Below are positions 1,318 to 64,000 of a DNA stretch of 64,000 bases, piece after piece; positions within the stretch are counted from its first letter, which is position 1; each line of letters opens with the position of its first letter. A program made the translations under genes and the position numbers. The notes under the pieces are model-generated. The model was not told the origin of the DNA, searched no databases, and saw nothing but the letters and a program-made list of their open reading frames with translations. This DNA is from Flectonema sp. DT1601 (Eukaryota): contig OZ025803.1 in assembly GCA_964019425.1 (NCBI GenBank), positions 1,116,001-1,180,000 on the forward strand, written 5' to 3'.

Positions 1318-1431
1318 CAAATTACTGTTCCATTCGTGTAAGTTAGAATTAATAAACACTTGTTAACACTAATAAATTACCATAAACCAGGCGTTGTGTT
1401 AGTTTACTTCTCTACAGAGAATAACAACAAC

Positions 1432-15020: not shown

Positions 15021-16281
15021 TTGAGGTGATCTTTTTGTTCTTTCCTTTTCCCCTCCACAATACTTACTTATTTCTATTCTCTCTCTTTTTATTTTTTTGA
15101 CCAACTTACTGAGAGATCCTTTTTTATAAAAAATATGGATCTGAGTTTCTTCTGTCTACACATCGGCAGTTCTTTGGAGTCGAGTAGGTTGAGTGGTGTC
15201 TTCGATTATCGAAATCTAGCCTGAAACTTATTTTACTCTGATTGAAAAAAAAAAAAAGGTCATCAGAAAAAAAAAAAAAAAAAAACCAAAATGTTGGCGC
15301 TACTAACACTTGTTTACGAGAAGCAGATTTTTTTTTTTTTTGAATTCTTTTGTTTCCCCGCAGTTCTTGTCCTTTTATTCTCTTTTTAATTTAAAAAATA
15401 TCCTTCCTTTCGGGCGATGTTGTCCAGCCTACTCCCCATCTGTAAACTACACTACTGTATTGGCTACTTTATATTTAACGATCCTTATTCCGTACTTCAC
15501 CTAAAGTGGTATATGTGCGCAGACAGCTGCTTTCAGTGGGGATTTTTGCACGAATTTTCAACTTCGTTGTTGTTACTGTTGGTTGCAAATACAGTTTTTT
15601 TTTTTTTTTTTTTTTTTGAATCTTTTTTTTCCCCTTTATTAACACAGTAACCCTCCCCCAAAAATTTCTTTTTTGTACTAGAATTTTATTTTTTATTTAT
15701 TTTTGGTTTTTTTTTTTTTTTTTTGCACACAACGGATTTTTTTCCTTTTTTTTTTGTATGAGTTTTTTTTAAAATAAAATAAAATACTTTTACTAACTAT
15801 TTATTAGTTCGTAATTTTGGTATAATAAGTTAGGCAAAAGATGGAAAAAGCTGAAAATTATCGTCCAGTAGTTAAATTATATTTCTTCAGATGAAGTTAA
15901 TCCAACAGTCCATCTCTGAGTCTTCGGAAACGACTCGTATTCTAACTTAAAAATAAATAAATAAAACTGTTGAACAGGATGTGTGAACCATCTGTCTGTA
16001 ATTAAATACAGCAGAACTCTGGTCTATTATGTGATGTTGCATTGGTTCACTTTTTTTTTTTGTGTTTTTAAAAAAAAGTAAAGTTATCTACTTGTTCTTT
16101 CTCTCTTGTTGTTTCATCCCTGTTGATATGTTTATCCTTTTCCCCTCTCACTGTCCCTATCGTAGAATACTCCTTGCGTTGTTTTGGATTATGAAAAGAA
16201 TTGATTAGAAGAATTAATTTATGTTATTTATTTAATGTTATTACTCATCTCTTTTATAGTCAATTCAGTCAGTTAGAGAAC

Positions 16282-19200
16282 ATGGCTGAGATCATTCCTC
16301 TCCCTCCTCGACGTCAAGTTCATCGTCGTCTCCATCGACTTGGATACTACTGTTCTACTGAGAGTTCACCAACTGAATTAAATAATGATGAAGCATTAAA
16401 TCAACTGTTGCGGATTAGTGTTTTCGCATCAATTAAAAATCAACATGAGAGGGAAGAGATGTGTAAAAACATATTAAAAACAGCACCAAAAATAGTATTG
16501 TTAGGTGGGGATAAATTAGTACGCCAAGGTGTTGGTGGAGGGAAGACATATTTACTACTAAAAGGAACAGCTGTTTCGTACAACGTTGACGGGTCAACTG
16601 ACGTGATGAAGTCTGAAAGTGTGATTGATCTTCTTGAACTCTACAGAGCGTGTCCTCGACTCTCAACAGTCGTAGTGACGTCTGAAGAGCTTCTTGCAAT
16701 TCAAATCTCAAGGAGGATTTTTAAAGCCTCCTCACGAAGTCTTTCTGCTGACTCCAGCAGAGATGTCGAAGATCATTTTAGAAAATTATTTAATAAATTC
16801 ATATCAAAAACATTTTTATCAAAAATGAACTTCTTTGACGGAGGTAAACAAATACCTCCAAAACTATTCGAAAGTTTTGACACGGTAACTTATAATAAAC
16901 ATGAAGAGATTCCTCACAGTACTCAATTGACAATAATATTACGTGGGAGTATAGCCATGTATAGTTCACGTGAAGAAATTCCCATAAATTACACCGAACC
17001 TGAACAACTCATACGAAGTCATCACGACGTCTTAGACATTTCTACGAGGGGAGCTTACGGAGAGTTACAAAAAGCAAAGAAAGACATCAACAGCAAGTAC
17101 CTTCTCAACATAACGGGATCTCAGCCTCACGGTGCTGATCAAACTTCACTTTTATTAAAAAAAACAAATTCTGAAAGGGATACATTCGCTTCAGATACTC
17201 TTTTCGACTTGTCTCCTAACCTTATGAGTACAAGATTAAGTGAAGCTAGGGGTAGCAGTGCCTATGCTGCATCTTTTTTAAAAGGAATAGGAAATAATGA
17301 CCTCAATGAACAACAGAGTACTGCCGCACAATTAAACTTTTTAGATTCAGAACAGATGAAGTTACTTATGAATGAAGAGATCAGTTCCATTGGAATACCA
17401 AAACAGAAACTCAATAAAATTCAAAAAGCACCTCCTACTCCTCTTCCGATTGGGATTGATATCCTAAACAGCTCCTCAAGACATAAGGGATCTAATACAG
17501 TTGTTGTTGATTCGAATGTTGGTATTCTACTTGAAGGAAGTTCCGTATCAGAACTATCTCTGCTACACGACGTTCCGAGAACTGGTCATCTGATCGCGAG
17601 AACGCATTGCATCGCATTGAGAGTGACGTCTTCAAATTTTAAAAAGCTGATTAGGTTTGATCAGTGTCCTGTTTCTATTGGAAAGGGAATTACTTCAAGA
17701 TCTGAAAAGACTTATGAAAAGTTTATTATATTGAGAAACTTATCAAAAGTAACTCTGTTGACAATACCGGAGTTCTCGGATCCAGTTGTGGCTTCTCGAG
17801 GACCGCAGTGGTTCCTGAGGAGAATAAGCGAAGAAGTCAAATTCGTAACTTTCAGCACCGACGAAATCATCTCTGAAATGTATGAATCAAAAGTAGATTT
17901 AGCGATTCTAATCAGAGGGAAGGTCAGAGTAGAAACTCAAATAGGAACCACCACCTCCTACAGATATTTAGGAGATGAGAGCTGCCACGGAGAACTCAAT
18001 TTATTGTATGACATGCCTCGAACAGAACGGTTGGTTGCAGAGTCTGAATGTTCTTGTGTTTTACTTCAGAAGAAAGACTTTGAGAAAGTACTAACAGAAG
18101 CAAAGTATAATAAAGAATCTTTAACATCTCTCTGGTTAGATGAATACCGTAGTGTACTCGCTAATTTGATAACAGTAAGGTCAAAAGTCTTTTCATCTTG
18201 GCAACAAGCGATGGACGTGGCGAGCGTATGTATTCCGCAGACAAGTATTGCTGTTGATATTAATATCCCAAATATGAGTCACGCTACTCAGAATTTTGGA
18301 GGTTCATTCTGTAACCCATTTGGTAGTGTTGGGATTGATAACAACACGTCAGCTAGTTTAAACCTCCCGGCGTTGACTTCTATTTGTCAGACGAATGATA
18401 ATTTAATATCGCAACCCACGCGGATGGGATCAAAAACTTTTACTATTCCGAGTCTAAGAAGTTTTGTAAGTGGGTCTGAAGGCAGCTCACCCAATAGTCC
18501 AAAGTGTCTAGTTCTCAGTGATGAGGTGGAATCACCTCGTGGGATTAGAGCAAAGCTGAGGTCTCCTTCTAATGAAAATGATGGGTCGGAACCTCTCAAA
18601 AAAAGTTCAAAATCGATTTTACAAACTCACGTTGCCGGAACGGTTCTCAGCAATCCAGATAACGGAGATCTTAATGAACATATTATTATTGTTGTTAATG
18701 GAAAGGTTCGAATTAAACATCAACAAGACGTTGATGATAATCTTAAGAATGATCTCATCTTACGAGACGGTGATATCTACGGAGACGTGGCAGTCTTCTG
18801 TCCAACTCCTCGACACTTAGAAGTTATTTGTGAACTTGACACCACTGTCTGTATACTCGATAAGACTGATATTCCTTCAGCTGTTGTTGAACAAGTCGAA
18901 TCTCGTGCATGGCAATATTTAAGAAATGAAATATTATTTGAGATCCTTTCTAATATAAATGTTTTCGTATCTGTTGGTCGTGGGTTGGTTAAAACATTAG
19001 CTCAGAAGTTAGTTTATAAAGTGTACCATCCTCGGGATTATGTTCTACTAGAAGGGTCAGATGGATATCAATCGATGTATTTAATATCGAAGGGGAGTGT
19101 GAATGTTACTGTTGATGGTCTTTACTCATCATCACTTAGGGATGGTAGTCATTTTAATATTTTAGGAATGTTGCATGCAACTCCTAGAAAGTTTACTTTG

Positions 19201-22200
19201 GCAGCTACGAAATCAACTCATGTGTTCTCAATAACTCGTCAAGACTTTACCAATTGCCTTCGAAACAAACACCCCAACAGCTATAGTGCTTTTATTTTCC
19301 GAAGTGCTGCATTGTTTCACACTGCTACACTGCAGATCCTCGTTAACGCGGTTCCGCTATTTGCTAATGCATCGACTCAGATGCAAGGTTTGTATTTATT
19401 ATTAAAACTATTTGAGTTGACTGATGCGATTGATTTTATATTACAATCCGCCTAACAAAACAGAAATGCTAAGCGAGTGTCTAAAGCACTCAATGTATGA
19501 AGCAGGATCAACAGTTGTAGAACAGGGAGAGGGAGGTGATGGGATGTATTTCATAAGCAGAGGTAAGCTCTCCGTCTCAATTGATGATGTTGTTGTGAAG
19601 ATAATAAAAGACGGCGACTTCTTTGGGGAAGTCGCTTTATTTTACGACACTCCGAGAACAGCGACAGTCACTGCAGAAAGTCACAGCCACCTATTCGCTC
19701 TCAGCAAGGAAGACTTCGTTAACGTCGCTACTCAGTTCCCACTTGAGAATAATGTGATAAAGAAGATGGCTGAAAATAGATTTTATGATTTTGTTTTATC
19801 GATTTTAGTTAAGAAAGTTCCGTTGTTTGCTTCTGCGTCAGTCGCTTTCTTAAATGATTTACTGAGGAAGTTAGAATCTAAAATGTACAACAGCGGTGAA
19901 GTTGTCATTAATCAAGACGACACTGGTGAGGAGATGTATTTCGTATCTCGTGGGGAACTCGACATCTGCGTCAACGGTAAGAATGGTTTGAATTTATTTC
20001 ATTCATCTTTTGTTTTCTTAAAAATAATAAAACAAAACAACTCAAAACAGTCCATTCTCTTAAAGACGGTGATTTCTTTGGTGAGATAGCCTTAGTGTAC
20101 GACACGCCTCGAACTGCGTCAATTACAGCAGCGGTAAGTACACAAGTTTTCGTACTAAATAGAACTGACCTCCACAGTGTGATGAGGAAATATAAACAAG
20201 AAGGTCAACAGATATTAACAATTAGTAGACAAAGGTTGAATAAGTGTGTTTTGAATGACTTGATTAGAAAGGTTCCCATGTTCAAATTTTGCAAATCCGA
20301 CGATTTCATTTCTAAGATTGTTGACTGTCTTGTCCCAAGAGGATATGCTGCAGGTGACCTCATCGTTGAGGAAGGAAATGGAGGCGACGAAATGTACTTT
20401 GTTTCAAGAGGTGAGTTGCATGTGACTGTCGGTGGTGTTGTTATCAACAGAATGCAAGACGGGGATTTCTTTGGTGAAATCGCTCTCATATTTGACACAC
20501 CCCGAACGGCTACCATCACCGCAGCAACAAAAACACAAGTCTTCGTTCTTCATAGAAAACAATTCGCAAGTGTTCGAGTACTCTACGTTGACGATTCTCA
20601 TATAATACATCACACGGCTTTATCTAGACTTCGTTTATATACTTTGACTGACCTTATTAGAAAGGTTCCAATGTTTAATAGCTGTAGGGATAGCGTACTT
20701 ATAAAGGATATCTCAGAGATGTTACTTCCGAAAACATTCATCGAAGGGGAGAAGATCATAAGTGAAGGAGAAGGTGGTGATGAAATGTATTTTGTCAGCA
20801 GAGGTCGATTACAAGTAATTATTGATGGAAAGATTGTTCACAAGTTAACAGATGGTGATTTCTTTGGTGAAGTTTCATTGGTGTTTGATGCGCCTCGGAC
20901 AGCTTCTATCGTTGCTGAGACTAAGGGATCGCTTTTTGTTTTGAAAAAATCAAGTTTTCAGAGTGTGACATCCGCATACCCTGAAGAGACTTCGTACATT
21001 CGAACTTGTGCTCTCACTCGATTTCATGACATCTACCTGACGATGATTAAGAAGGTTCCTCTGTTCTCAAATGTTATGATGGGAAACAATCTATTCGTCA
21101 CGTCTTTAATTGAATTATTAAAACCTGCTCGTCATTCTCAAGGTACTTATGTTGTACGAGAAGGTGAGGGGGGTAGTGAAATGTATTTTATTCTGCGGGG
21201 ACAGCTTGCGTTGACAATTGGTGATCAATATATAGGTTTGTGTTTGTGTTTATTGTTCAACGCGGATAACTTAATGAGGACATTAAAATAACAACAACAG
21301 GACGTCTTCGTGACGGGGACTACTTTGGAGAGGTAGCCTTGCTGTACGACACTCCGAGAACGGCTTCTATTTATGTTGAGTTAGATTCTCAATTTCTGGT
21401 ACTCAGTCAGGAAGACTTCTTAAAGTGCGTTGTTCAGTTTCCACAGTTCCATAAAGAAGTTCAGCAACAGGCTGATGTCAGACTTCGAAATTTTGTCCTA
21501 CTTCAGATGGTTGAGAAAGTCCCGCTCTTCTATCACTGCGGAAGAGAGTTCAGTGAAGACTTAACTCAGTTACTACAACCCAGACTTGTTGAGAAGGATT
21601 TCATTATTATGAAGGAACACGAAGCAGGTAATGAAATGTTCTTTATATGTCGAGGTGAGGTAAGTATGCACAGAGATGGTGAATTCCTAGCCAGGGTTAC
21701 TGACGGAGGAATCTTTGGTGAGATCTCACTTGTTTACGACACCGCTCGTGTTGCGACTATCACGGCCACAGTGAAGACTCACTTGTTCGTTTTGAGTAAA
21801 AATGATTTCGATGTTGTAATGAAAAGATACCCTCGAGCTGCACGACTTCTCCTCGGTGTTGCAAAAGAAAGATTTCTTCAAATAGTTCTTCTTGATTTGG
21901 TTCGGAAGGTTCCTATCTTCAAAACAACAGATACTGTGAAACCAAACATGTCATTCTTGAAAGAAATCACATCTCGTTTGATCCCAAAACACTTCAACGC
22001 TGATGAGATCGTCGTCCTGGAGGGTGAAGGTGGTGATAAAATGTACTTCGTAAGCAACGGTAAGCTGCAGATAACACAACAGGGAAGTCCTCGTATGCTA
22101 TTTTATATTTTAATTACAGTCACTCACAACTACTAATTAAATACCACAACTACAGTATTCATCTTAGCAGACGGTGACTTCTTTGGTGAGATAGCCTTGG

Positions 22201-25200
22201 TGTACGACACTCCCAGAACAGCAACAATCACTTCAGTGACTAACTCACAATTATATATCTTAACCAGATCAGATTTCCACGACGTTATTATGACCTACCC
22301 GGATGAATCAGAAGGCATTGTAGAGATAGCAAAGAAACGTCTTCATGAACACGTCTTGAATGATTTCGTCAGAGATGTTCCACTCTTTGCGAGCTGCTCT
22401 GAGGAATTAGTAACTCAAATTGTTAGCGCCCTCCACCCATCAGTCGTTGATGGTGTTGTTATTTCTGAAGGAATGGGTGGAAATGAAATGTATTTCATAA
22501 GTAGAGGTCGACTTAATGTCTCATTAGGTGACAAGGAAGAGATTGTTCACAGACTTCAAGACGGTGATTTCTTTGGTGAAATCGCTCTTTTGTATGACAC
22601 GCCTCGAACAGCGACTATCACGACAGATGGTCCTGCTCAGTTATATATTTTAAGAAGAAATCAATTCTTATCAATTATCGAAACAAACAGCGAGGTCGCT
22701 GAAAGCATTAGAGAAGTAGCTCTCAATCGTTTTCGTGCAATCGTATTGGAAGATATCATATCAAAGATTCCTTTATTCTCTGATGATGATGATGACTCCA
22801 CATCGACTGAATCATTCCTTCAAGAAGTCGTCAAAAGATTAAAAATTAGATCATTCGAAAAGGACACTTTTATAATAAAAGAAGGTGAGGGAGGTGAGGA
22901 AATGTTTTTTGTTTCCAGAGGGAAGTTATTAGTTTACTCAAATGGAAAGCTGGTTGGAAAGCTCAAAGACGGAGGATTCTTTGGTGAGGTAGCTCTTCTT
23001 TACGACACTCCCAGAACAGCGAGTATCAGAGCTGAAACAAAAACTCAGCTATTCGAACTTTCAAAGAAAGATTTCGAAGAAGCTATCAAACCATTTCCTT
23101 TGAAGTCATCAAAAGTACAGTCGATTGCTAAAGAACGATTTCGTAAGTTCGTATTAGGAGATATGGTCAGAAAGGTTCCTTTATTCACGAGATGTAAAAC
23201 AACTGAAATGATAGAGGAAGTAATTGACCTCCTCCAACCTCAACTGTTTCCAGCAAACAGTACCGTCATCCAAGAAGGGGAAGGGGGATCTGAAATGTTT
23301 TTTATTTCAAGAGGTTCTCTCTCTGTTCTTAATTCCAAAGGAAATCAAGTCCACAGACTTGTTGATGGGAATTTCTTTGGTGAGATCGCAATGTTATTTG
23401 ACACTCCTCGAACAGCATCAGTGGTTACGTTAGTAGACAGTTACCTGTTCTCATTATCTGGTGAAGCATTTCGTGATGTTATAAAGAAATATCCTCATGA
23501 AGCAGCGTGGACTCGAGAAATAGCGGAATCACGTCTTCGTAAACATGTTTTACAAGACATCGTTAAGAATGTTCCGATATTTGCTTCTTGTAAAGAAGAT
23601 GCTTTCTTAACCAACATTGTGAGCCACTTAAAACCAAGAGGGTACTCTGAAGGACAAACTGTTATAACCGAAGGAGAAGGTGGTGATGAAATGTTTTTCA
23701 TCTCAAGAGGTGAACTCGAAATCATGTCTTCTAACGGAACAATATTACGAACCCTTCGCGATGGTGAGTTCTTTGGTGAGGTCGCTTTAGTGTTCGACAC
23801 TCCGAGAACAGCGACTATTAGAGCTGCTGCGAAAAGTCAACTTTTTGTTTTATCAAAAAAAGACTTCCAATCCGTCATTGAAACCAATCCAGCGATCGGA
23901 AAATCGATTCAAACGATCGCCAGGGAGAGGTTTTGTGGATTCGTGTTGACGGAGTTCGTGAGAAGAGTTCCTTTATTCCAATATTGTAGTCAGGACTTTA
24001 TTAATTGTTTAGTCGATAAAATGGAACCGAGTTCATTCGAAACTGGAGACATAATAATAAAAGAAGGACACGGAGGACAACAAATGTACTTCGTCAACAG
24101 AGGAATCCTCAACGTTGTTGTTGGTTCCGATGGAGGGGAAATTGTTCATACGATGAAAGACGGTGACTTTTTCGGTGAAGTCGCACTCGTATTTGAAACA
24201 CCGCGGACAGCGAGTATAATAGCCACTACTAAATCACAATTATTTATATTAACGAAGGATGACTTCAATTCAGTTATCAATGAATTCCCTTCTGAGTCAG
24301 ACAGAATCAGAGCCGTTGCTTCTGAAAGATTTCTACAATTCATCCTCCACGACATCGTTAAGAAGGTTCCTTTCTTCTCTGAATGTAAGTCAAGTGAGTT
24401 TTTAAGTCAAATAGTTCAGCTTCTCATTCTAAAAACTTACGAACAAAACGATCTAATTGTTGAAGAAGGAGAAGGTGGTGATGAAATGTATTTTGTTAGC
24501 AGAGGTGTTTTAGATGTTTTTGTATGCGGAGAGAAGGTCACTAAATTATGTGACGGCGACTTCTTTGGTGAGGTAGCTCTCGTATACGACACTCCTCGCA
24601 CCGCTTCAATTATTGCAGTTGAGAAGTCACAATTATATATTTTAACAAAAGAAGACTTAAATCGAGCTCTGATAGACCATCCTGAAGAAGTTCAAACCAT
24701 TAGCATCTCTGCGAGTATTCGATTAAAACAGTTCGTACTCTTTGATTTAGTAAGAAAGATTCCAATGTTCAAGGAGTGTACTGATCAAAGTATTATTTAC
24801 GAACTAGTCGATTTCTTATCACCCAGAAGTTGTATTGAGAACACTACTATCGTATCACAGCAACACGGTGGTGATGAAATGTACTTCGTAAGCAGAGGAC
24901 AGTTAGCAGTAGTAGTCGATAATAAAACTGTTCACACACTCAAAGACGGTGATTTCTTTGGTGAAGTAGCTCTCGTGTATGATACGCCTCGTACAGCAAC
25001 AATCACATGTTTGTGTCAGACTCAGTTATTCGTACTGACTAGGAGAGATTTTAATGCGGTCATTGAAAAATACGCCGGCACCCCAATTCATACGGCGATC
25101 TATAAAATATCTTCTCACAGATTCAAACGTTACGTACTAACAACACTCGTTGCTAAGGTTCCGATGTTCGAAGGGGTTTCTCAGGAATTTATTCACAGCG

Positions 25201-28200
25201 TTGTAGAGTTTCTAAAGCCTCGCAGCGTAAGCGGATTTGTGATCAAAGAGAACGACGACTCGAGTGAGGAAATGTATTTTGTTAGCCGAGGAGAGCTTCG
25301 AGTTACTGTTGCTGGTAAGGTATGAAATTATTGTTTCTGAAGTCCCCCTTTTTGGAAGTTGTCTTTAATATGATTCAAAGTATTCATCCGAACCTGATTC
25401 TTGTTTCTGATTTCAGTCAGTTTAAAGATAGTCTTACGGTGCTTCTTACGGAGTGTTTCTGTGGTTCAAAAATTAAATAAATAAAACAGACGGTACACAC
25501 AATGAGAGATGGAGACTTCTTTGGTGAAATCGCCCTGCTGTACGACACTCCCAGAACAGCATCCATCATAGCTGACCAGCCAACACAGTTGTTCATCCTG
25601 TCGAGAGCTTGCTTCGGTTCTGTAATCGACGCACACCCAACCGACGCTGAACCGATTAAAAAAATAGCAAGAGAGAGACTCGAACTGTACGTTCTGAATG
25701 ATTTGGTTAAGAAAGTTCCGATATTTGGAGCCGCAGAGGATGCGAATATAATAAAAAGGATCATCGCTGCTCTCATCCCTCGTAGTATTTGTAAAGGCGG
25801 GTGGGCGGTAAAGGAAGGCGAGTCAGCGAATGAGATGTTCTTCGTTTCTCGTGGAGAGCTGCGAGTAATAATGGAAGTTAACGGAAAGGAAGTTGTTGCT
25901 CAGTCTCTCAGAGATGGTGATTTCTGTGGTGAGGTTGCAATGGTATTTGATACCCCTCGCACAGCATCCATCATGGCTGCTGTTAAGACTCAAGTCTTCG
26001 TATTGACTCGAACTTCTTTTAATCGAATCTTAAAATCACAATCTGGTTGTCTTAAAGACAAAATGATTGAAGTCGCAAGAGAAAGGTTTAATAACTACAT
26101 CCTAAGAGATCTGGTCAGAAAGGTTCCAATATTTTCGAAAGCAGACAATAATTTTATTATTCAACTGGTGGCCGTAATGAACTCCGAGACATTCAAACCA
26201 GGTGAAGATATCGTATTCGAGGGTCAGGGTGGTGATCAGATGTACTTCATAAGTAGAGGTCGCTTAAATGTTATTTTATCAGGAGAACGTGTATTCTTAT
26301 TAAGCGACGGGGATTTCTTTGGAGAAATAGCACTCATTCTAGACACTCCACGAACTGCTTCGGTTGTTGCGGAAACAACAACAACTCTGTACTCTCTACA
26401 TCGAAATGACTTCAATCAAATCCTCACCAGACACCCAAAGATCCGTCGCTGTATTGAGCGAGTTGCTAAAGATCGTTTTAATCAAGTCGTATTGCAAGAA
26501 CTTATTAAAAAGGTTTCGATGTTCTCTCACTGTGACGATGACTTTATTAGTAACTTAGTTGAAAAAATGGATCATAAAAATGTTTCTGAAGGGGATTTCG
26601 TAGTCCGCGAAGGTCAAGGAGGCGATGAAATGTTTTTTGTAAGTAGAGGTATGTGTTTATTGTACTTTTTACTTCACATCAGTGATGACATGAAACCCTA
26701 AACTGATACTCAAACAGGTCACTTGGATGTAATCGTTTCTGTTGGATCAGAAGAAACAGTCGTGAGCTCATTAAAAGATGGTGACTTCTTTGGTGAGGTT
26801 GCATTAATTTATAGCACACCTCGCACTGCATCAATAAGGTCAACTACTCCTTCGACAATTTATGTTTTAAAAAAACAACATTTTCAACAACTGTTGTCGA
26901 CGAGTACTGCTGCTGAGGAAATTAAAAGAGTCGCGGAGTGTCGGTTTAAAAATCACATCCTACACAACTTGGTAAAGAAGGTTCCTCTCTTTGCTGATTC
27001 TGATAGTGACTTTATAACTGATTTAGTAGAGTGTTTGGATGCTCAATTTGTAACTCCAGGACAGAAAGTAATTAGAGAAGACGAAGGAGGTGATGAAATG
27101 TATTTTGTAGTGAGAGGAGTGTTGTCGACTCAAATATGTGGTGAGGAAGTACACGTTCTCAGAGATGGTGATTTCTTTGGTGAAATAGCCCTCTGTTATG
27201 ACACACCTCGTACAGCAACAATTACTTCTATCGGAGACAGTGAACTGTTTGTTCTTTATAAAGATGAGTTCACTAATGTGATGATGAAGTACCCGAAGGA
27301 GGCTCAACAAATTCAACAAATTGCTCGCCAGCGTCTCAACGCGTTTGTTCTTCGAGCAATTATTGAACGAGTTCCTCTCTTTAGTCAAATCACTTGCACA
27401 GATCAATCTAGTAGACAGGAATTCATATCTGAACTTGCATCTCGTCTAACGTACCACGTCATAGAGCCCCCAGAGAATAGGGAACAGTATTTCTTTGAGG
27501 AAGGTTTGCAAATAATTACATTTTCCCTTTTATTTTGACTTATAAACAACAACAACAACACAACAGGAGATGAAGCTGACGGAATGTATTTCGTAAGTCG
27601 AGGATCTGTCATTGTTTTGATTGACTACGAACAGATGTTTAGTATCAAAGACGGAGGATTCTTTGGTGAGATAGCCTTGATATACGACATACCTCGTAGG
27701 GGTAGCGTCGTTATTCAAAGTACGGTTTCTATTTTTAAACTTAAGAGGAATGATTTCAATGAGATCACCAGAAAGTATCCTTCTATTGAACGAGGTCTTC
27801 ATGAAGCTGCGAAGATTAGAATGAAATCAATCATATCAACTGACTTGGTAAGATACGTTCCGTTATTTAGTGCGATGAGACACGATGAAGTCTTTCTTCA
27901 TGAGATCTCTTGTAGACTAACTCCTGTAGTCGTTGAAAAAGATTCTGAAATCTCATTGGAAACTCCCGGCTTACTAATATTATGTTGTGGTAAGGTATCA
28001 GTTGAAACTGTTGAAGGGGATGATGATAAAATAACAAAACCAGAAGTAATAACCCCAGGGGGTTTCTTTGGTGAGACAGCAATGCTATACGACAGAAAAA
28101 TAATTAAAAGTGCTGTTGCGATATTGAAGAGTACTCTTTATCACTTTAGTAGAACATCATTTTTACAACTACGAGACCAATATCCTCTCATTGCTGAGGT

Positions 28201-28480
28201 GTACAGAGAACCAGCTCGAAGGAAGATTAATCTTTTATTTTCTCGTAATAAATTATACTCATTTGAATATGCTTGTGAGCTGCTAGCTGACTCTACAGAA
28301 AGGGGATGTATTCGTCGATGTTATACTCGATTGTTTCTAAATATATTATCTCATCATACGAGAGTCTGTTCTCAAAGAACTGAACAATCAATAAGTATCA
28401 AAGAAAGGAAGAAGACAATCGCAATTACTAAAATTAGAAAACTCAAAAGGATGATGTCCAGTAGCCGGCTTGGTTTGTGA
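16282..28480 (+). CDS. Giant tandem cyclic-nucleotide-binding (cNMP) domain protein, ~3875 aa, 8 exons, ~26 CNB domains
   Basis: Eight ORFs join in phase via introns 19388-19463, 19986-20050, 21236-21300, 22093-22155, 25320-25489, 26649-26717 and 27504-27566. The repeated unit is KVPLF...EGEGGDEMYFVSRG...DGDFFGEIAL.YDTPRTA. Confidence 0.92.
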
Positions 28481-54732: not shown

Positions 54733-55578
54733 TTGATTAATGAAATCAGGTGAACTGCTGCAAAAGGTACATCGCATGAGTGGTGTTTATTATGGGTTAA
54801 TAGGCATTTACATTCTGGTTGATGCGAAATAATTCCCCCTTCTTTTTTCCTTTTCCCAGGTGTGTTTCACCAGTTGTTTGATAAAAAAGGGAAAGCATGT
54901 CTTTTCCAAAAAGGTTAGTTCTGAACATATTTTTTCTTTTCCCTGTTTCTCTCCCCCATGATATTTGCTTCTAACTCAACCTCAGGGCTCCGAAATGGAT
55001 TCGCATTTCTAGTCGCTTTAACACTAAAAGCAATAGCATAAGATTGATTGTGGCCTGAAACAAGCAGGTGGGAGATTTAGATTTGTAGACCTAAAAAATT
55101 GCTAAATGACTGTTTCAATTATCAGTGTCGGTAATTTTTAAAGACACACTGAACGTTTAAAAAAGAAAAGAAAATGCATCATAAGGTGCCAATTCGCAAA
55201 CTGGCCGCAACCCATTTGATACAACAGAACCGTTGCTACTTTGACTTACTACTTTGACAATGAACACAAAGTAAAATGTCTTGTTTATATTGTGATGTTT
55301 TATTTGGTCTCTTCTCCTAGTATACTTACCTTATCCCATAACATATTTGAGAAAACACCGTCCATGAGTTAGTTTTTCTTCGGTTACAGACATCCATTAA
55401 ATGGCTTGACAGCTTCTATTGTAATGGGAAGCTCAATCGTGTAAAAAAAATCAATTCTTGTTTCAGTCACACACACAATACAACATGAACCACACATGGT
55501 AATTCTGTATTTAATAACCACTAACATCCCCTCAAAACATGTTTTACCAAGGAGCAGCTGATTTTACAGAGCAAAAAC

Positions 55579-55650
55579 AGCGGCTCCCGAGAATCGAACT
55601 CGGGTCTCCACGGCCACAACGAGGTGTTCTAACCATTAAACTAGAGCCGC
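55579..55650 (-). tRNA. trnH-GUG: tRNA-His (anticodon GUG)
   Basis: The reverse complement GCGGCTCTAGTTTAATGGTTAGAACACCTCGTTGTGGCCGTGGAGACCCGAGTTCGATTCTCGGGAGCCGCT folds as a cloverleaf with acceptor stem GCGGCTC/GAGCCGC, T-loop TTCGATT and anticodon GTG. A T5 Pol III terminator lies just downstream. Confidence 0.96.
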
Positions 55651-55721
55651 TTCAAAAGTTTTTGCTTTTTTTTTTTGCGTCTTTTATTTTTGCGTTTTTT
55701 CTATTTTGGGAACCTCCCTAG

Positions 55722-57239
55722 CCGTACTCTCAACTCCTGCTAAGTGTACGCTACAAGATGTGTAGGGCCTATGAAGAATTCAAATTAAGTCCCCACCTAC
55801 CAGCTTGTAGCCTCACAATGACGGAGGGAGGCCTAAACTACCCACCAAAAACAGCTTGGGGTCGCATAGTTTGGGATGAATATGTGTCGGGGATCCCGGG
55901 ACTCGACAAACACAGAAGCTCGTATCACTCGGAAATCAATCCAAAGCACTATAAGATGCGATCATGGAAGGTAACTAATGCAATGGAATTCAACTACTGT
56001 TTTGGAAAAGAAGAGGCAAAAGACAAAGAAGCCGGTCTACCAATTGAAGACGTGAAGGTGTACACAGATGGGTCTATTAGACATAGGACGAAGACGTACA
56101 TGACTAAGTCAGGAGCATCTGTGATAATAGTGAAGGGTAAGGAAGTTAGCATGACCGGATTCAGAATACCTGTAGCAGGAAGCTCCTACAGAACTGAACA
56201 GATAGCCGTGGAACAAGCGATGAGGATACTCCTGGAAAACAAAAAGGCATCCGAAGGAATACTTCCCACAACAAAGACGCATATTCTAACTGACTCAATG
56301 TCGCTAATACAGGCACTTGAGCGAGGACCTGAAGAACAGAAATCTGCTACAAACGCATCAATCTGGAAGTTAGCACTGAAACTGGAACACAGAGGTGTTA
56401 ATATTAACATGCAGTATGTCCCAGCACATATGGATGTGCTGTATAATGAAATAGCAGACAAGGTGGCAAAACACGCTGCAGGTACGATAAAGAAACCTCC
56501 AGATGACAGTGTGGTACTCGAGAGTTTAGTTACTAGACTGGATATGGGAACCCTTATGACTTTTCACAAGAGAAGAAAACGAGAGGAGTGGATTGGAGCC
56601 GGCGAACAGAGGCATCCACCTTTTGTAGAAGAACTGACGAGACCACAAGAAGTCCTAATGTCCCGCTTCAGAGTTGGACACTGTAGATCTCTTAAACTAA
56701 AAGGAATAAACGAACAGTGCATCTTCTGTCATGGAGATACTGCAACACCGCATCATGTGCTTTTCAAGTGCAACCACTGGTGTATCCAAAAGATGAGATC
56801 ATTGTACATACACAGCATGATTAATACCGAAACTGGTGAAGTAGTGAGTAAAGTAGAGGACTGCTTCTTAAAGGAGAATCAACGCAGCATGTCCAACTTT
56901 GTAGTGGTACTGGACCAAATAGCTGAAATACTCGGAAGACCTGGAAATCCATAATTTAAAGATGCGGTTCTTAGACCAAATGAGGAAGTAAACTGAACTC
57001 TTTAGTAATTGATAAACAAAGAAAACAAAGAAGATACGAAGCCTACGGGAACCCCCCATCCCATCCCCAATCCCCACAAAAAGAAAGTTTACAGAAGAAA
57101 GAAAGAACAACCGCGCCTAACAGCGCAAACAGCAAAGCAGGTCGAAGGAACCTGCAGTGCACACAAAAAAAACATCATAAGGATCGCTGGTTCCGAGGGT
57201 TTGCTCTCCCACTTACCTGCCTCTCTATCCCTCAAAAAA
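55722..57239 (+). mobile_element. 5'-truncated non-LTR retrotransposon (ingi/I-group-like 3' end: RNase H, CCHC knuckle, 3' UTR, short poly-A)
   Basis: The frame is open from 55722 to 56954 and has no RT domain. About 280 nt of 3' UTR end in an A-run (57234-57239) directly before the SL. The 5' boundary is approximate (~55710-55722). Confidence 0.8.
55758..56954 (+). CDS. Non-LTR-type RNase H plus C-terminal CCHC zinc knuckle (C-terminal part of a retrotransposon ORF2)
   Basis: RNase HI catalytic motifs VYTDGS, SYRTE..A, ILTDSMS and YVPAH...NEIAD..AK. Then LTRPQEVLMSRFRVGH and CIFC-x8-HVLFKC, typical of LINE ORF2 C-termini. Confidence 0.88.
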   Translation: MCRAYEEFKLSPHLPACSLTMTEGGLNYPPKTAWGRIVWDEYVSGIPGLDKHRSSYHSEINPKHYKMRSWKVTNAMEFNYCFGKEEAKDKEAGLPIEDVKVYTDGSIRHRTKTYMTKSGASVIIVKGKEVSMTGFRIPVAGSSYRTEQIAVEQAMRILLENKKASEGILPTTKTHILTDSMSLIQALERGPEEQKSATNASIWKLALKLEHRGVNINMQYVPAHMDVLYNEIADKVAKHAAGTIKKPPDDSVVLESLVTRLDMGTLMTFHKRRKREEWIGAGEQRHPPFVEELTRPQEVLMSRFRVGHCRSLKLKGINEQCIFCHGDTATPHHVLFKCNHWCIQKMRSLYIHSMINTETGEVVSKVEDCFLKENQRSMSNFVVVLDQIAEILGRPGNP

Positions 57240-57278
57240 AACCAACGATTCTAAAGCTACAGTTTCTGTACTTTATTG
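57240..57278 (+). other. Complete 39-nt spliced-leader (mini-exon) sequence, retroposed (not an SL RNA gene)
   Basis: AACCAACGATTCTAAAGCTACAGTTTCTGTACTTTATTG has the euglenozoan length, the AAC(C/T)AACG start and the conserved CAGTTTCTGTACTTTATTG end. It is followed by TTTTTTCCC rather than a GT SL-intron. Confidence 0.93.
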
Positions 57279-60200
57279 TTTTTTCCCTCCCTCGCCCCAT
57301 CCCCGTCAGCGAGTAGGAAAGCGCAGCTAGGAATTTTTCCACGCAAGCGGATCCCACAACCCGACCACCCTTCCCCACGCTCACCCCATCCACCCTCCCC
57401 CACCCCAACAAAAGAAGAAAACGGCGGCAGCCACGTGACACACTCGTGTTCGTGTAGCGAAGCGTTTCGGCGACTTCGAAGACGACGACGACGACGACGA
57501 CGTAGAAGAGACGGTGTATGTGACTGACCTTCTTCTTCCTTATTTATTTGTTTACTTTTGTTAATTACTTCCTCTTAATTTCATTCCTCTCTTAGATTGT
57601 TGTTTATTTGCTTATTTATTTGTTTGTTTATTTGTCTGTTTATCTGTCTGTATATTCTGTTACTATCTGTTATTTTGTTACATTTATCTGTAGTACATTT
57701 TTGTTATTGTTAAATTAAAACATCTTCTTCACAGTTTTTTCCCTCCCTCGCCCCATCCCCGTCAGCGAGTAGGAAAGCGCAGCTAGGAATTTTTCCACGC
57801 AAGCGGATCCCACAACCCGACCACCCTTCCCCACGCTCACCCCATCCACCCTCCCCCACCCCAACAAAAGAAGAAAACGGCGGCAGCCACGTGACACACT
57901 CGTGTTCGTGTAGCGAAGCGTTTCGGCGACTTCGAAGACGACGACGACGACGACGACGTAGAAGAGACGGTGTATGTGACTGACCTTCTTCTTCCTTATT
58001 TATTTGTTTACTTTTGTTAATTACTTCCTCTTAATTTCATTCCTCTCTTAGATTGTTGTTTATTTGCTTATTTATTTGTTTGTTTATTTGTCTGTTTATC
58101 TGTCTGTATATTCTGTTACTATCTGTTATTTTGTTACATTTATCTGTAGTACATTTTTGTTATTGTTAAATTAAAACATCTTCTTCACAGTTTTTTCCCT
58201 CCCTCGCCCCATCCCCGTCAGCGAGTAGGAAAGCGCAGCTAGGAATTTTTCCACGCAAGCGGATCCCACAACCCGACCACCCTTCCCCACGCTCACCCCA
58301 TCCACCCTCCCCCACCCCAACAAAAGAAGAAAACGGCGGCAGCCACGTGACACACTCGTGTTCGTGTAGCGAAGCGTTTCGGCGACTTCGAAGACGACGA
58401 CGACGACGACGACGTAGAAGAGACGGTGTATGTGACTGACCTTCTTCTTCCTTATTTATTTGTTTACTTTTGTTAATTACTTCCTCTTAATTTCATTCCT
58501 CTCTTAGATTGTTGTTTATTTGCTTATTTATTTGTTTGTTTATTTGTCTGTTTATCTGTCTGTATATTCTGTTACTATCTGTTATTTTGTTACATTTATC
58601 TGTAGTACATTTTTGTTATTGTTAAATTAAAACATCTTCTTCACAGTTTTTTCCCTCCCTCGCCCCATCCCCGTCAGCGAGTAGGAAAGCGCAGCTAGGA
58701 ATTTTTCCACGCAAGCGGATCCCACAACCCGACCACCCTTCCCCACGCTCACCCCATCCACCCTCCCCCACCCCAACAAAAGAAGAAAACGGCGGCAGCC
58801 ACGTGACACACTCGTGTTCGTGTAGCGAAGCGTTTCGGCGACTTCGAAGACGACGACGACGACGACGACGTAGAAGAGACGGTGTATGTGACTGACCTTC
58901 TTCTTCCTTATTTATTTGTTTACTTTTGTTAATTACTTCCTCTTAATTTCATTCCTCTCTTAGATTGTTGTTTATTTGCTTATTTATTTGTTTGTTTATT
59001 TGTCTGTTTATCTGTCTGTATATTCTGTTACTATCTGTTATTTTGTTACATTTATCTGTAGTACATTTTTGTTATTGTTAAATTAAAACATCTTCTTCAC
59101 AGTTTTTTCCCTCCCTCGCCCCATCCCCGTCAGCGAGTAGGAAAGCGCAGCTAGGAATTTTTCCACGCAAGCGGATCCCACAACCCGACCACCCTTCCCC
59201 ACGCTCACCCCATCCACCCTCCCCCACCCCAACAAAAGAAGAAAACGGCGGCAGCCACGTGACACACTCGTGTTCGTGTAGCGAAGCGTTTCGGCGACTT
59301 CGAAGACGACGACGACGACGACGACGTAGAAGAGACGGTGTATGTGACTGACCTTCTTCTTCCTTATTTATTTGTTTACTTTTGTTAATTACTTCCTCTT
59401 AATTTCATTCCTCTCTTAGATTGTTGTTTATTTGCTTATTTATTTGTTTGTTTATTTGTCTGTTTATCTGTCTGTATATTCTGTTACTATCTGTTATTTT
59501 GTTACATTTATCTGTAGTACATTTTTGTTATTGTTAAATTAAAACATCTTCTTCACAGTTTTTTCCCTCCCTCGCCCCATCCCCGTCAGCGAGTAGGAAA
59601 GCGCAGCTAGGAATTTTTCCACGCAAGCGGATCCCACAACCCGACCACCCTTCCCCACGCTCACCCCATCCACCCTCCCCCACCCCAACAAAAGAAGAAA
59701 ACGGCGGCAGCCACGTGACACACTCGTGTTCGTGTAGCGAAGCGTTTCGGCGACTTCGAAGACGACGACGACGACGACGACGTAGAAGAGACGGTGTATG
59801 TGACTGACCTTCTTCTTCCTTATTTATTTGTTTACTTTTGTTAATTACTTCCTCTTAATTTCATTCCTCTCTTAGATTGTTGTTTATTTGCTTATTTATT
59901 TGTTTGTTTATTTGTCTGTTTATCTGTCTGTATATTCTGTTACTATCTGTTATTTTGTTACATTTATCTGTAGTACATTTTTGTTATTGTTAAATTAAAA
60001 CATCTTCTTCACAGTTTTTTCCCTCCCTCGCCCCATCCCCGTCAGCGAGTAGGAAAGCGCAGCTAGGAATTTTTCCACGCAAGCGGATCCCACAACCCGA
60101 CCACCCTTCCCCACGCTCACCCCATCCACCCTCCCCCACCCCAACAAAAGAAGAAAACGGCGGCAGCCACGTGACACACTCGTGTTCGTGTAGCGAAGCG

Positions 60201-63200
60201 TTTCGGCGACTTCGAAGACGACGACGACGACGACGACGTAGAAGAGACGGTGTATGTGACTGACCTTCTTCTTCCTTATTTATTTGTTTACTTTTGTTAA
60301 TTACTTCCTCTTAATTTCATTCCTCTCTTAGATTGTTGTTTATTTGCTTATTTATTTGTTTGTTTATTTGTCTGTTTATCTGTCTGTATATTCTGTTACT
60401 ATCTGTTATTTTGTTACATTTATCTGTAGTACATTTTTGTTATTGTTAAATTAAAACATCTTCTTCACAGTTTTTTCCCTCCCTCGCCCCATCCCCGTCA
60501 GCGAGTAGGAAAGCGCAGCTAGGAATTTTTCCACGCAAGCGGATCCCACAACCCGACCACCCTTCCCCACGCTCACCCCATCCACCCTCCCCCACCCCAA
60601 CAAAAGAAGAAAACGGCGGCAGCCACGTGACACACTCGTGTTCGTGTAGCGAAGCGTTTCGGCGACTTCGAAGACGACGACGACGACGACGACGTAGAAG
60701 AGACGGTGTATGTGACTGACCTTCTTCTTCCTTATTTATTTGTTTACTTTTGTTAATTACTTCCTCTTAATTTCATTCCTCTCTTAGATTGTTGTTTATT
60801 TGCTTATTTATTTGTTTGTTTATTTGTCTGTTTATCTGTCTGTATATTCTGTTACTATCTGTTATTTTGTTACATTTATCTGTAGTACATTTTTGTTATT
60901 GTTAAATTAAAACATCTTCTTCACAGTTTTTTCCCTCCCTCGCCCCATCCCCGTCAGCGAGTAGGAAAGCGCAGCTAGGAATTTTTCCACGCAAGCGGAT
61001 CCCACAACCCGACCACCCTTCCCCACGCTCACCCCATCCACCCTCCCCCACCCCAACAAAAGAAGAAAACGGCGGCAGCCACGTGACACACTCGTGTTCG
61101 TGTAGCGAAGCGTTTCGGCGACTTCGAAGACGACGACGACGACGACGACGTAGAAGAGACGGTGTATGTGACTGACCTTCTTCTTCCTTATTTATTTGTT
61201 TACTTTTGTTAATTACTTCCTCTTAATTTCATTCCTCTCTTAGATTGTTGTTTATTTGCTTATTTATTTGTTTGTTTATTTGTCTGTTTATCTGTCTGTA
61301 TATTCTGTTACTATCTGTTATTTTGTTACATTTATCTGTAGTACATTTTTGTTATTGTTAAATTAAAACATCTTCTTCACAGTTTTTTCCCTCCCTCGCC
61401 CCATCCCCGTCAGCGAGTAGGAAAGCGCAGCTAGGAATTTTTCCACGCAAGCGGATCCCACAACCCGACCACCCTTCCCCACGCTCACCCCATCCACCCT
61501 CCCCCACCCCAACAAAAGAAGAAAACGGCGGCAGCCACGTGACACACTCGTGTTCGTGTAGCGAAGCGTTTCGGCGACTTCGAAGACGACGACGACGACG
61601 ACGACGACGTAGAAGAGACGGTGTATGTGACTGACCTTCTTCTTCCTTATTTATTTGTTTACTTTTGTTAATTACTTCCTCTTAATTTCATTCCTCTCTT
61701 AGATTGTTGTTTATTTGCTTATTTATTTGTTTGTTTATTTGTCTGTTTATCTGTCTGTATATTCTGTTACTATCTGTTATTTTGTTACATTTATCTGTAG
61801 TACATTTTTGTTATTGTTAAATTAAAACATCTTCTTCACAGTTTTTTCCCTCCCTCGCCCCATCCCCGTCAGCGAGTAGGAAAGCGCAGCTAGGAATTTT
61901 TCCACGCAAGCGGATCCCACAACCCGACCACCCTTCCCCACGCTCACCCCATCCACCCTCCCCCACCCCAACAAAAGAAGAAAACGGCGGCAGCCACGTG
62001 ACACACTCGTGTTCGTGTAGCGAAGCGTTTCGGCGACTTCGAAGACGACGACGACGACGACGACGACGTAGAAGAGACGGTGTATGTGACTGACCTTCTT
62101 CTTCCTTATTTATTTGTTTACTTTTGTTAATTACTTCCTCTTAATTTCATTCCTCTCTTAGATTGTTGTTTATTTGCTTATTTATTTGTTTGTTTATTTG
62201 TCTGTTTATCTGTCTGTATATTCTGTTACTATCTGTTATTTTGTTACATTTATCTGTAGTACATTTTTGTTATTGTTAAATTAAAACATCTTCTTCACAG
62301 TTTTTTCCCTCCCTCGCCCCATCCCCGTCAGCGAGTAGGAAAGCGCAGCTAGGAATTTTTCCACGCAAGCGGATCCCACAACCCGACCACCCTTCCCCAC
62401 GCTCACCCCATCCACCCTCCCCCACCCCAACAAAAGAAGAAAACGGCGGCAGCCACGTGACACACTCGTGTTCGTGTAGCGAAGCGTTTCGGCGACTTCG
62501 AAGACGACGACGACGACGACGACGACGTAGAAGAGACGGTGTATGTGACTGACCTTCTTCTTCCTTATTTATTTGTTTACTTTTGTTAATTACTTCCTCT
62601 TAATTTCATTCCTCTCTTAGATTGTTGTTTATTTGCTTATTTATTTGTTTGTTTATTTGTCTGTTTATCTGTCTGTATATTCTGTTACTATCTGTTATTT
62701 TGTTACATTTATCTGTAGTACATTTTTGTTATTGTTAAATTAAAACATCTTCTTCACAGTTTTTTCCCTCCCTCGCCCCATCCCCGTCAGCGAGTAGGAA
62801 AGCGCAGCTAGGAATTTTTCCACGCAAGCGGATCCCACAACCCGACCACCCTTCCCCACGCTCACCCCATCCACCCTCCCCCACCCCAACAAAAGAAGAA
62901 AACGGCGGCAGCCACGTGACACACTCGTGTTCGTGTAGCGAAGCGTTTCGGCGACTTCGAAGACGACGACGACGACGACGACGTAGAAGAGACGGTGTAT
63001 GTGACTGACCTTCTTCTTCCTTATTTATTTGTTTACTTTTGTTAATTACTTCCTCTTAATTTCATTCCTCTCTTAGATTGTTGTTTATTTGCTTATTTAT
63101 TTGTTTGTTTATTTGTCTGTTTATCTGTCTGTATATTCTGTTACTATCTGTTATTTTGTTACATTTATCTGTAGTACATTTTTGTTATTGTTAAATTAAA

Positions 63201-64000
63201 ACATCTTCTTCACAGTTTTTTCCCTCCCTCGCCCCATCCCCGTCAGCGAGTAGGAAAGCGCAGCTAGGAATTTTTCCACGCAAGCGGATCCCACAACCCG
63301 ACCACCCTTCCCCACGCTCACCCCATCCACCCTCCCCCACCCCAACAAAAGAAGAAAACGGCGGCAGCCACGTGACACACTCGTGTTCGTGTAGCGAAGC
63401 GTTTCGGCGACTTCGAAGACGACGACGACGACGACGACGTAGAAGAGACGGTGTATGTGACTGACCTTCTTCTTCCTTATTTATTTGTTTACTTTTGTTA
63501 ATTACTTCCTCTTAATTTCATTCCTCTCTTAGATTGTTGTTTATTTGCTTATTTATTTGTTTGTTTATTTGTCTGTTTATCTGTCTGTATATTCTGTTAC
63601 TATCTGTTATTTTGTTACATTTATCTGTAGTACATTTTTGTTATTGTTAAATTAAAACATCTTCTTCACAGTTTTTTCCCTCCCTCGCCCCATCCCCGTC
63701 AGCGAGTAGGAAAGCGCAGCTAGGAATTTTTCCACGCAAGCGGATCCCACAACCCGACCACCCTTCCCCACGCTCACCCCATCCACCCTCCCCCACCCCA
63801 ACAAAAGAAGAAAACGGCGGCAGCCACGTGACACACTCGTGTTCGTGTAGCGAAGCGTTTCGGCGACTTCGAAGACGACGACGACGACGACGACGTAGAA
63901 GAGACGGTGTATGTGACTGACCTTCTTCTTCCTTATTTATTTGTTTACTTTTGTTAATTACTTCCTCTTAATTTCATTCCTCTCTTAGATTGTTGTTTAT
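57279..64000 (+). repeat. Tandem array of 456/459-bp units (14 complete + 1 partial, runs off the window)
   Basis: Unit starts at 57279, 57735, 58191, 58647, 59103, 59559, 60015, 60471, 60927, 61383, 61842, 62301, 62760, 63216 and 63672. Units appear identical except (GAC)7 versus (GAC)8 in the three units starting at 61383, 61842 and 62301. Each unit ends in a pyrimidine-rich acceptor catcttcttcacAG. Confidence 0.98.

What the first reader, a model, noticed from the sequence alone, without database searches (positions are those of the whole stretch)
55579..64000. Candidate SL-trans-spliced, tRNA-gene-targeting retrotransposon system: tRNA <- | truncated LINE-An | SL-headed repeat array
Seen in order: (1) a minus-strand tRNA-His; (2) about 60-70 bp from its 5' end, pointing away, the uninterrupted RNase H-CCHC 3' end of a non-LTR element; (3) the element's A-tail abutting position +1 of a full SL exon; (4) the SL opening a >6.7-kb array of 456-bp units. 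Established: Dictyostelium TRE5 LINEs insert about 50 bp upstream of tRNA genes with their 5' ends facing the tRNA, carry tandem 5' modules and stack in tandem. Trypanosome SLACS/CZAR elements also have tandem repeats in their 5' region but target SL genes. Inference: the SL-headed array is the 5' end of a full-length element whose RNA is capped by trans-splicing at acceptors built into its own repeats. The RNase H piece would then be a later 5'-truncated copy inserted at the same tRNA-proximal site. Such an element would need no promoter or 5' ribozyme to define its RNA 5' end. I know of no description of this combination in diplonemids.
Basis: partly seen in the sequence, partly recalled or inferred. 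Interest (0 to 1): 0.9.

Follow-up and report, generated by a model that had tools for sequence, protein, structure and literature searches.

The report
Stacked RNA copies beside a tRNA
Beside a tRNA gene of a marine flagellate lie, head to tail, the rear part of a young jumping gene, a short A-tailed piece and a tandem repeat that starts with the host's mRNA leader tag; they were likely copied from RNA by the jumping gene's enzyme hopping between RNAs, and whether the repeat is itself the front of a jumping gene is untested.

Summary
The order of parts is real, with two corrections. The LINE match starts 96 nt (not 60-70) from the tRNA-His 5' end. The LINE ends at its own A8 (57172); the A6 that touches the spliced leader (SL) belongs to a separate 61-nt piece (Y). 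The SL is the exact 39-nt exon of this organism's SL gene, without that gene's flanks, and replaces the sequence upstream of the AG that ends every 456-bp unit, so this join was made in RNA and copied into DNA. The LINE is a young diplonemid family (APE-RT-RNase H-CCHC). At other loci its tails are fused directly to truncated LINEs, so stacking is a family habit. The array resembles the published Diplonema tandem repeats of 5' UTR plus upstream intergenic DNA. Best reading (0.5): a multi-part retrocopy built by template jumps, with an SL-capped array RNA as passenger. No genome or raw reads were available.

The parts
55579..55650 (-). tRNA-His (GTG) gene; 5' end at 55650 faces the stack
   Evidence: ARAGORN; Rfam RF00005 61 bits
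55651..55705 (.). 55-nt T-rich flank upstream of the tRNA (67% T)
   Evidence: sequence; composition
55706..55746 (+). Piece X, 41 nt, not LINE coding sequence; its first 15 nt also precede a truncated sister-family (F3) copy elsewhere. Either a reused target flank or an element 5' end (unresolved)
   Evidence: P0174 and P0458 begin with the peptide read from X in frame; start-anchored match 1 of 5155 control starts
55747..56954 (+). 3' part of LINE family F1 ORF: end of thumb, RNase H, CX2CX8HX4C finger; identical to P0005 residues 921-1321
56955..57172 (+). F1 3' UTR with two terminal hairpins and its own A8 tail (57165-57172)
   Evidence: fold z -4.71, 0 of 200 shuffles; P0438 34-residue read-through of this UTR ends in the A-run
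57173..57239 (+). Piece Y, 61 nt, plus A6 (57234-57239); not part of the F1 3' UTR in P0438; a Y-like sequence lies reversed before another truncated F3 copy
   Evidence: P0326 start-anchored match, 0 of 5155 control starts; no significant fold alone or joined to X
57240..57278 (+). Complete 39-nt spliced-leader exon without SL-gene upstream flank or intron
   Evidence: SL-gene contigs in X1, X2, X3
57279..64000 (+). Tandem array, 14.7 units of 456 (459) bp: 237-nt GC-rich half, host-type GTATG motif at unit position 238, 219-nt T-rich half ending in CACAG; unit 1 starts exactly where the AG of the other units ends
   Evidence: circular unit contigs in 4 of 4 runs

Best explanation
The region is a head-to-tail stack next to a tRNA-His gene (a LINE 3' piece with its A-tail, a short A-tailed piece, and a spliced-leader-headed tandem array) that was likely written into DNA by the reverse transcriptase of a young diplonemid LINE family, probably by jumping from the 5' end of one RNA to the A-tail of the next. 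Shown: the parts and their order; the SL is joined at the unit's AG; the LINE family encodes APE, RT and RNase H; at other loci its tails are fused to truncated LINEs with little or no spacer. Inferred: host read-through transcription (all long ORFs of the window lie on the + strand) produces array RNA; one acceptor takes the SL; the RT copies this RNA up to the cap, jumps onto the A-tail of the Y RNA, then onto F1 RNA, and stops after 1.4 kb. The array itself is likely a diplonemid-type tandem amplification of an acceptor plus 5' UTR; it may have been copied whole as a little-processed RNA, or only its first unit came from cDNA that was primed on, or recombined with, a resident array. On this reading the SL RNA is a passenger, and the tRNA neighbourhood is a favoured but unproven landing site.
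For: SL exon exact, complete from +1, lacking SL-gene flanks, and placed exactly after the acceptor position. No spacer between A6 and SL +1; no shared word of 9 or more letters between the 5' flank and the inner junctions. F1 has its own tail before Y. Of 16 N-terminal read-through peptides compared (from 99 family proteins; some are probably frameshifts), 3 are a LINE 3' UTR or tail running straight into a truncated LINE (P0438 34 aa, P0035 6 aa, P0028 5 aa; 0 of 500 random windows reach the latter two lengths), and P0174 switches in frame from family F3 to F1. Families hold 39, 31 and 91 near-identical members with full-length ORFs. Multi-part template-jump retrocopies are published (PMC2104539, abstract), as are SL-headed retrocopies in dinoflagellates (PMC6050394, passages) and Diplonema arrays of 5' UTR plus intergenic DNA (PMC10161547 section 7).
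Against: Fourteen acceptors and GTATG motifs in a row remain unspliced, which is odd for a mature RNA. Serial insertion at one hot spot gives the same head-to-tail look, and the reuse of X (2 proteins, one shared junction) and Y (1 protein) at other junctions fits such a hot spot. X and Y have nearly the same base composition, so F1 may have landed inside an older X+Y piece rather than being part of one event. The A-runs are short (8 and 6). In the published chimeras the LINE is the 3' part; here it is the 5' part. The junction evidence from other loci is protein read-through, not DNA.
Confidence: 0.5

Rival explanations
1. The SL-headed array is the 5' end of a mobile element (an F-family LINE or a non-autonomous partner ending in X+Y+poly(A)). 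It is transcribed by host read-through, capped by trans-splicing at its own repeated acceptors, which buffer the loss of one or more units per cycle, and copies land again and again 55-100 nt upstream of tRNA genes.
For: Unit 1 is SL-spliced at the unit's own acceptor. The unit has one ATG, followed at once by a stop, against about 4 in shuffles (P about 0.06). Units are nearly identical and form circular contigs in three studies besides the possible source. One contig of run X5 begins exactly at the G shared by SL and acceptor (depth 2, weak). Orientation is as for TRE5-A (PMC3159450, passages); 55 nt lies in, 96 nt just outside, the 37-90 bp range of TRE5-A (PMC5006619 table). The only LINE piece of the window is within 100 nt of its only tRNA: about 0.3-0.6% of 16,460 nt outside long frames (post hoc). 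X-headed junctions at +15 would lie 70 nt from a tRNA if X marks such flanks.
Against: No call links the array to an RT ORF. The F1 tail is not at the SL. The 10 codons before one full-length F3 ORF are not array (P0448). 0 of 16 read-through peptides match tRNA-His, SL or array beyond chance level. If X is the family's own 5' end, F elements do not start with the SL. Kinetoplastid INGI-clade transcripts lack the SL (PMC1874656, passages). Similar arrays precede ordinary Diplonema genes.
Confidence: 0.3
2. Independent events: a repeat-bounded host gene (or satellite) was retrocopied or gene-converted once, gaining the SL; Y and F1 inserted later into the A/T-rich DNA in front of it; the tRNA is only the neighbour at the end of a host gene cluster.
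For: Diplonema has dozens of genes with tandemly repeated 5' regions, one with a ~400-bp unit of 5' UTR plus intergenic DNA in 12 copies, and gene clusters separated by repeat regions (PMC10161547 abstract and section 7). The GC-rich half is 79 codons, open in one frame, and unit variation keeps that frame (about 1 in 10 by chance, my estimate).
Against: Needs an insertion exactly at SL +1 with no spacer. The Diplonema arrays are degenerate (71-96%), this one is not.
Confidence: 0.13
3. Assembly chimera: unrelated repeats were joined at short A-runs.
For: Both inner junctions are A-runs between multi-copy sequences.
Against: An assembler cannot invent an SL joined to the base at a splice acceptor from genomic reads; similar tail-to-LINE fusions are on record at other loci.
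Confidence: 0.07

Closest known systems
Template-switch chimeric retrocopies (Magnaporthe WEIRD/Mg-SINE/MGL, mammalian tripartite chimeras; PMC2104539, abstract seen)
   Same: Copies of two or three different RNAs fused directly, with a LINE among them
   Different: Here each part keeps its own A-tail, the LINE is the 5' part, and one part starts with a complete spliced leader; flanking repeat not testable
Repeat-bounded genes of Diplonema papillatum, e.g. DIPPA_19968 (PMC10161547 section 7 seen)
   Same: Tandem array of a ~400-bp unit made of 5' UTR plus preceding intergenic DNA, in a diplonemid
   Different: This array is nearly invariant, longer than 6.7 kb, headed by a genomic SL exon and preceded by retro-pieces; the downstream gene is unknown
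SL-relict retrogenes of dinoflagellates (PMC6050394, passages seen)
   Same: A leader added to RNA by trans-splicing found in DNA marks a retrocopy
   Different: Euglenozoan host; the copied RNA is a repeat array; an APE LINE is the likely copier
Dictyostelid tRNA-upstream LINEs: TRE5-A, and the RNase H-bearing Dp_NLTR-A / Pp_NLTR-B (PMC5006619 section 9 and passages; PMC3159450 passages)
   Same: 5' end faces the tRNA 5' end; distance of similar size; NLTR-A/B also carry RNase H after RT
   Different: TRE5 has two ORFs and no RNase H; targeting here is seen at one locus only; relationship not tested; tandem A-modules of TRE5-A are recalled, not seen in the passages read
Kinetoplastid INGI clade (ingi, L1Tc; PMC12278014, PMC5814959, PMC1874656, passages seen)
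   Same: APE-RT-RNase H in one ORF, poly(A) tail, euglenozoan host
   Different: C-terminal finger is CCHC, not C2H2; ~100-residue insert in the RT; INGI RNAs are defined by Pr77 and lack the SL
CRE clade (SLACS, CZAR, CRE1/2)
   Same: Association with SL sequence; internal repeat regions
   Different: RLE endonuclease and insertion between nt 11 and 12 of SL genes; here APE, an intact SL exon and no SL gene

Membership tests
APE-type non-LTR retrotransposon with RNase H | APE, RT and RNase H domains in order in one protein | tested here: met
   Pfam on P0004, P0002, P0003, P0163; model folds like L1 ORF2p
APE-type non-LTR retrotransposon with RNase H | 3' UTR ending in an A-tail; 5'-truncated copies | tested here: met
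APE-type non-LTR retrotransposon with RNase H | Target-site duplication | tested here: inconclusive
   none of 9 or more letters between the 5' flank and inner junctions; right end of the stack is outside the window
INGI clade of kinetoplastids | C-terminal C2H2 fingers CX2CX12HX3-5H | tested here: not met
   finger reads CX2CX8HX4C; definition from PMC5814959 passage
INGI clade of kinetoplastids | Pr77 promoter / HDV-like ribozyme at the 5' end | tested here: inconclusive
   no Rfam match in 55300-58300 but the tRNA; the family's true 5' end is not held
INGI clade of kinetoplastids | RT groups with ingi/L1Tc | not testable with these tools
   no named ingi or L1Tc row among the 123 rows of the quick tree; the 7 diplonemid rows form their own long branch, SH-aLRT 100
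TRE5 (Dictyostelium) | 5' end faces the tRNA 5' end, about 50 bp upstream | tested here: inconclusive
   orientation met; 55 nt to X, 96 nt to LINE sequence; one locus
TRE5 (Dictyostelium) | ORF2 of APE, RT and zinc finger without RNase H | tested here: not met
   RNase H present; definition
TRE5 (Dictyostelium) | Strict genome-wide association with tRNA genes | not testable with these tools
   no genome held; indirect peptide test negative
CRE/SLACS/CZAR | RLE endonuclease | tested here: not met
   APE at the N-terminus, no RLE family hit; applies to F1-F3, not to whatever follows the array
CRE/SLACS/CZAR | Insertion between nt 11 and 12 of an SL RNA gene | tested here: not met
   SL exon is whole and lacks the SL gene's upstream flank and intron
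SL-headed retrocopy | Complete leader exon in DNA, joined at a splice acceptor, outside an SL gene | tested here: met
Diplonema repeat-bounded gene | Tandem unit of 5' UTR-like DNA plus intergenic DNA with the acceptor | tested here: met
   unit anatomy against PMC10161547 section 7
Diplonema repeat-bounded gene | A gene directly downstream whose 5' region equals the unit | not testable with these tools
   array runs to the end of the window
Template-switch chimeric retrocopy | Direct fusion of copies of different RNAs | tested here: met
Template-switch chimeric retrocopy | One pair of direct repeats around the whole chimera | not testable with these tools
   right end not held

The most novel reading that the evidence does not exclude
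A diplonemid retroelement (autonomous or carried by the F LINEs) that has no promoter or ribozyme of its own: it lands just upstream of tRNA genes at the end of host gene clusters, is transcribed by read-through, takes the host spliced leader at one of a long row of built-in acceptors, and uses the row as a reserve against the units lost at each cycle.
Probability: 0.3. Interest if true: 0.85.

Novelty: new variant of a known kind. Interest (0 to 1): 0.58.

Why it matters
At the least, the locus shows that trans-spliced RNA is copied back into a diplonemid genome with its whole leader, by a LINE family that fuses RNAs into stacks; this offers a route by which the repeat-bounded genes of diplonemids could arise or move. 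If the array proves to be an element's 5' end, it would be a third answer to the LINE 5'-end problem in polycistronic euglenozoans (beside Pr77 and insertion into SL genes) and a case of tRNA-upstream targeting outside amoebozoa and fungi. Searches listed no paper that describes this combination; the library lacks most subscription journals, and the long text supplement of PMC10161547 (its repeat section) gave no hit for 'spliced leader' among the 7 files held and may bear on this.

Tried and rejected
No whole genome held, so nothing beyond 64000 and no DNA flank of other copies. Run search: no RNA holder listed. Only contigs were laid; none bridged tRNA-LINE, UTR-Y or A6-SL; holes prove nothing. 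Run X4 holds the array unit but showed no LINE or SL cover at 90 or 80 in 100, X6 nothing; not used as evidence. Contig depths were not used as copy numbers. A loose end at 57152 in X3 vanished and was dropped. A 22-letter unit motif found nothing in metagenome, viral or prokaryote collections. Locus searches: none in viral contigs; 16 loci at 28-40% identity in JGI, 0 of 16 with a tRNA, too distant to matter. Idea that flank peptides P0329, P0035, P0328 hide tRNA genes: scores 24.5-35.5, null 90th percentile 34.6 (1286 of 1324 control peptides), real tRNA 46-48; rejected. Idea that X+Y is a structured RNA or ribozyme: z between -1.0 and 0.6; no Rfam hit; rejected. ATG scarcity in the unit is only P about 0.06. 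The longest-match part had a bug (all zeros) and was redone. Six of the first 15 leads (P0045, P0172, P0331, P0332, P0336, P0360) were dropped as point variants or frameshifts before the count. The careful tree did not finish; the quick tree is reported. RT insert: Foldseek no match at E 0.001, no likeness to a host segment tried, Atlas gave no answer. Earlier findings by place and sequence: nothing.
Full report
Setting. The window is eukaryotic: long intron-broken ORFs, every frame over 220 codons on the + strand, 8 of 10 tested with Pfam families such as kinesin, kinase and cNMP-binding. The host is a diplonemid: the closest relatives of the element protein outside its own set are Flectonema neradi transcripts at 43-58%, and the leader exon is 39 nt, as in Diplonema papillatum (PMC10161547, passage). 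No genome was held.

The parts. tRNA-His lies at 55579-55650 on the minus strand. After 55 T-rich nt comes a 41-nt piece X, then LINE sequence from 55747: a contig of run X1 matches from there and continues upstream as the longer element, and tblastn agrees. The frame holds RNase H and a CX2CX8HX4C finger and equals residues 921-1321 of P0005 letter for letter. The 3' UTR ends in two hairpins (z -4.71, 0 of 200 shuffles) and A8. A 61-nt piece Y and A6 follow, then the leader (57240-57278), then the array.

The leader is retro-copied. SL-gene contigs in 3 of 4 runs carry the same 39 letters, with another upstream flank and a GT intron. In the window the exon has neither. Every array unit ends in CACAG, and unit 1 starts after the leader with the letters that follow that AG in all other units. 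This is what trans-splicing at the unit's acceptor produces, so this join passed through RNA. Fourteen complete units are present, 11 identical and 3 with one more GAC. A unit is a 237-nt GC-rich half, a GTATG motif like the host's likely intron donors, and a T-rich half with only three AG. The unit forms circular contigs in X1, X2, X3 and X4; X1 may be the source sample; X3 and X4 hold a variant with one substitution and a 9-letter insertion in the T-rich half. One X5 contig starts at the G shared by leader and acceptor, as expected where both forms meet, but it has depth 2 and other causes are possible.

The LINE family. Searches gave three sister clusters of 39, 31 and 91 members (15 of each listed), about 60-74% alike between and mostly 97-100% within. 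Full-length proteins of 1305-1321 aa have APE, RT and RNase H and fold like L1 ORF2p (pLDDT 87). In a quick tree of 123 RT segments the 7 diplonemid rows form one long branch (SH-aLRT 100); no named clade reference was among the rows, so the clade is not assigned. They share an insert of about 100 residues between the last RT motifs (169-171 residues against 69-82 in the 65 other rows with a plausible count; one row at 350 was a mismatch of the motif).

Other junctions, read from proteins. Gene callers read through the flanks of truncated copies, so the first residues record flank DNA. Of 99 family proteins, 22 had unmatched starts of 4 or more residues; 6 were dropped as variants, 16 compared with the window. 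P0438 carries 34 residues of the F1 3' UTR, ends in the A-run and passes into a truncated F3 without Y: F1 ends at 57172 and Y is separate. P0035 and P0028 also show a LINE UTR or tail running into a truncated LINE (0 of 500 random windows give matches as long). P0174 switches from F3 to F1 in frame. None matched the leader, the array or tRNA-His beyond one 4-mer. P0448 shows 10 codons before a full-length F3 start; they are not array. That these proteins come from the same organism is inferred from identity, not shown.

How it likely works. The family fuses RNA copies head to tail. With no spacer at SL +1 and no duplicated target word at the inner joints, the simplest account is end-to-end jumping: the RT copies an SL-capped array RNA to its cap, moves to the A-tail of Y, then to F1, and stops. 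Double jumps are published for fungal and mammalian LINEs (PMC2104539, abstract); SL-marked retrocopies for dinoflagellates (PMC6050394, passages). [quoted passage not shown] Against this account: many acceptors left unspliced, short tails, and the chance that X+Y was one older piece split by F1, as their like composition suggests.

It survives in a changed form: the array could head an F element or a non-autonomous partner ending in X+Y+A. For it: near-invariant units, few ATG (P about 0.06), TRE5-like orientation (PMC3159450, passages), a distance near the TRE5-A range of 37-90 bp and the NLTR-B range of 39-64 bp (PMC5006619, passages and section 9), and a post hoc chance of under 1% for the position. 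Against it: no link to an RT ORF, the F1 tail is not at the leader, no second tRNA-linked copy, and INGI-clade RNAs of trypanosomes lack the leader (PMC1874656, passages).

Comparison. Not CRE/SLACS (RLE, insertion into SL genes; PMC12278014 and PMC5814959, passages). Not TRE5 by protein. INGI-like in domain order but with a CCHC finger. PMC4558846 and PMC11613528 (passages) gave no precedent for this arrangement. Verdict: real, retro-derived, a new variant of known kinds; the most novel reading needs the sequence past 64000.

Noticed in passing
proteins P0004 residues ~690-800 (family-wide; not in the window): A ~100-residue folded insert in the RT of all diplonemid family members (pLDDT 82-93). 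Its best structural neighbours are almost all PDZ domains, but weakly (best Z 5.4, rmsd 2.7, 75 aligned). A possible protein-binding or targeting module; unproven.
   Followed up: partly
window 57279-57515 (GC-rich half of the unit): 237 nt = 79 codons, open in one frame with an arginine run; if the T-rich halves were cis-spliced out, the units would join into one repetitive frame without a start codon. May be chance.
   Followed up: partly
window 57203-57218: Piece Y read on the minus strand holds a strong 5' splice-site-like motif; origin of Y unknown.
   Followed up: no
window 16195-28477: A very long, intron-broken gene of many cNMP-binding repeats (8 stretches in one exon alone).
   Followed up: no
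window 1342-1884 and 2414-2998: Two near-identical cold-shock-domain genes with Gly/Arg-rich repeats in tandem.
   Followed up: no
proteins P0319, P0435; P0174, P0458: The same LINE/non-LINE junction occurs in two proteins each, suggesting that chimeric copies are themselves duplicated.
   Followed up: no
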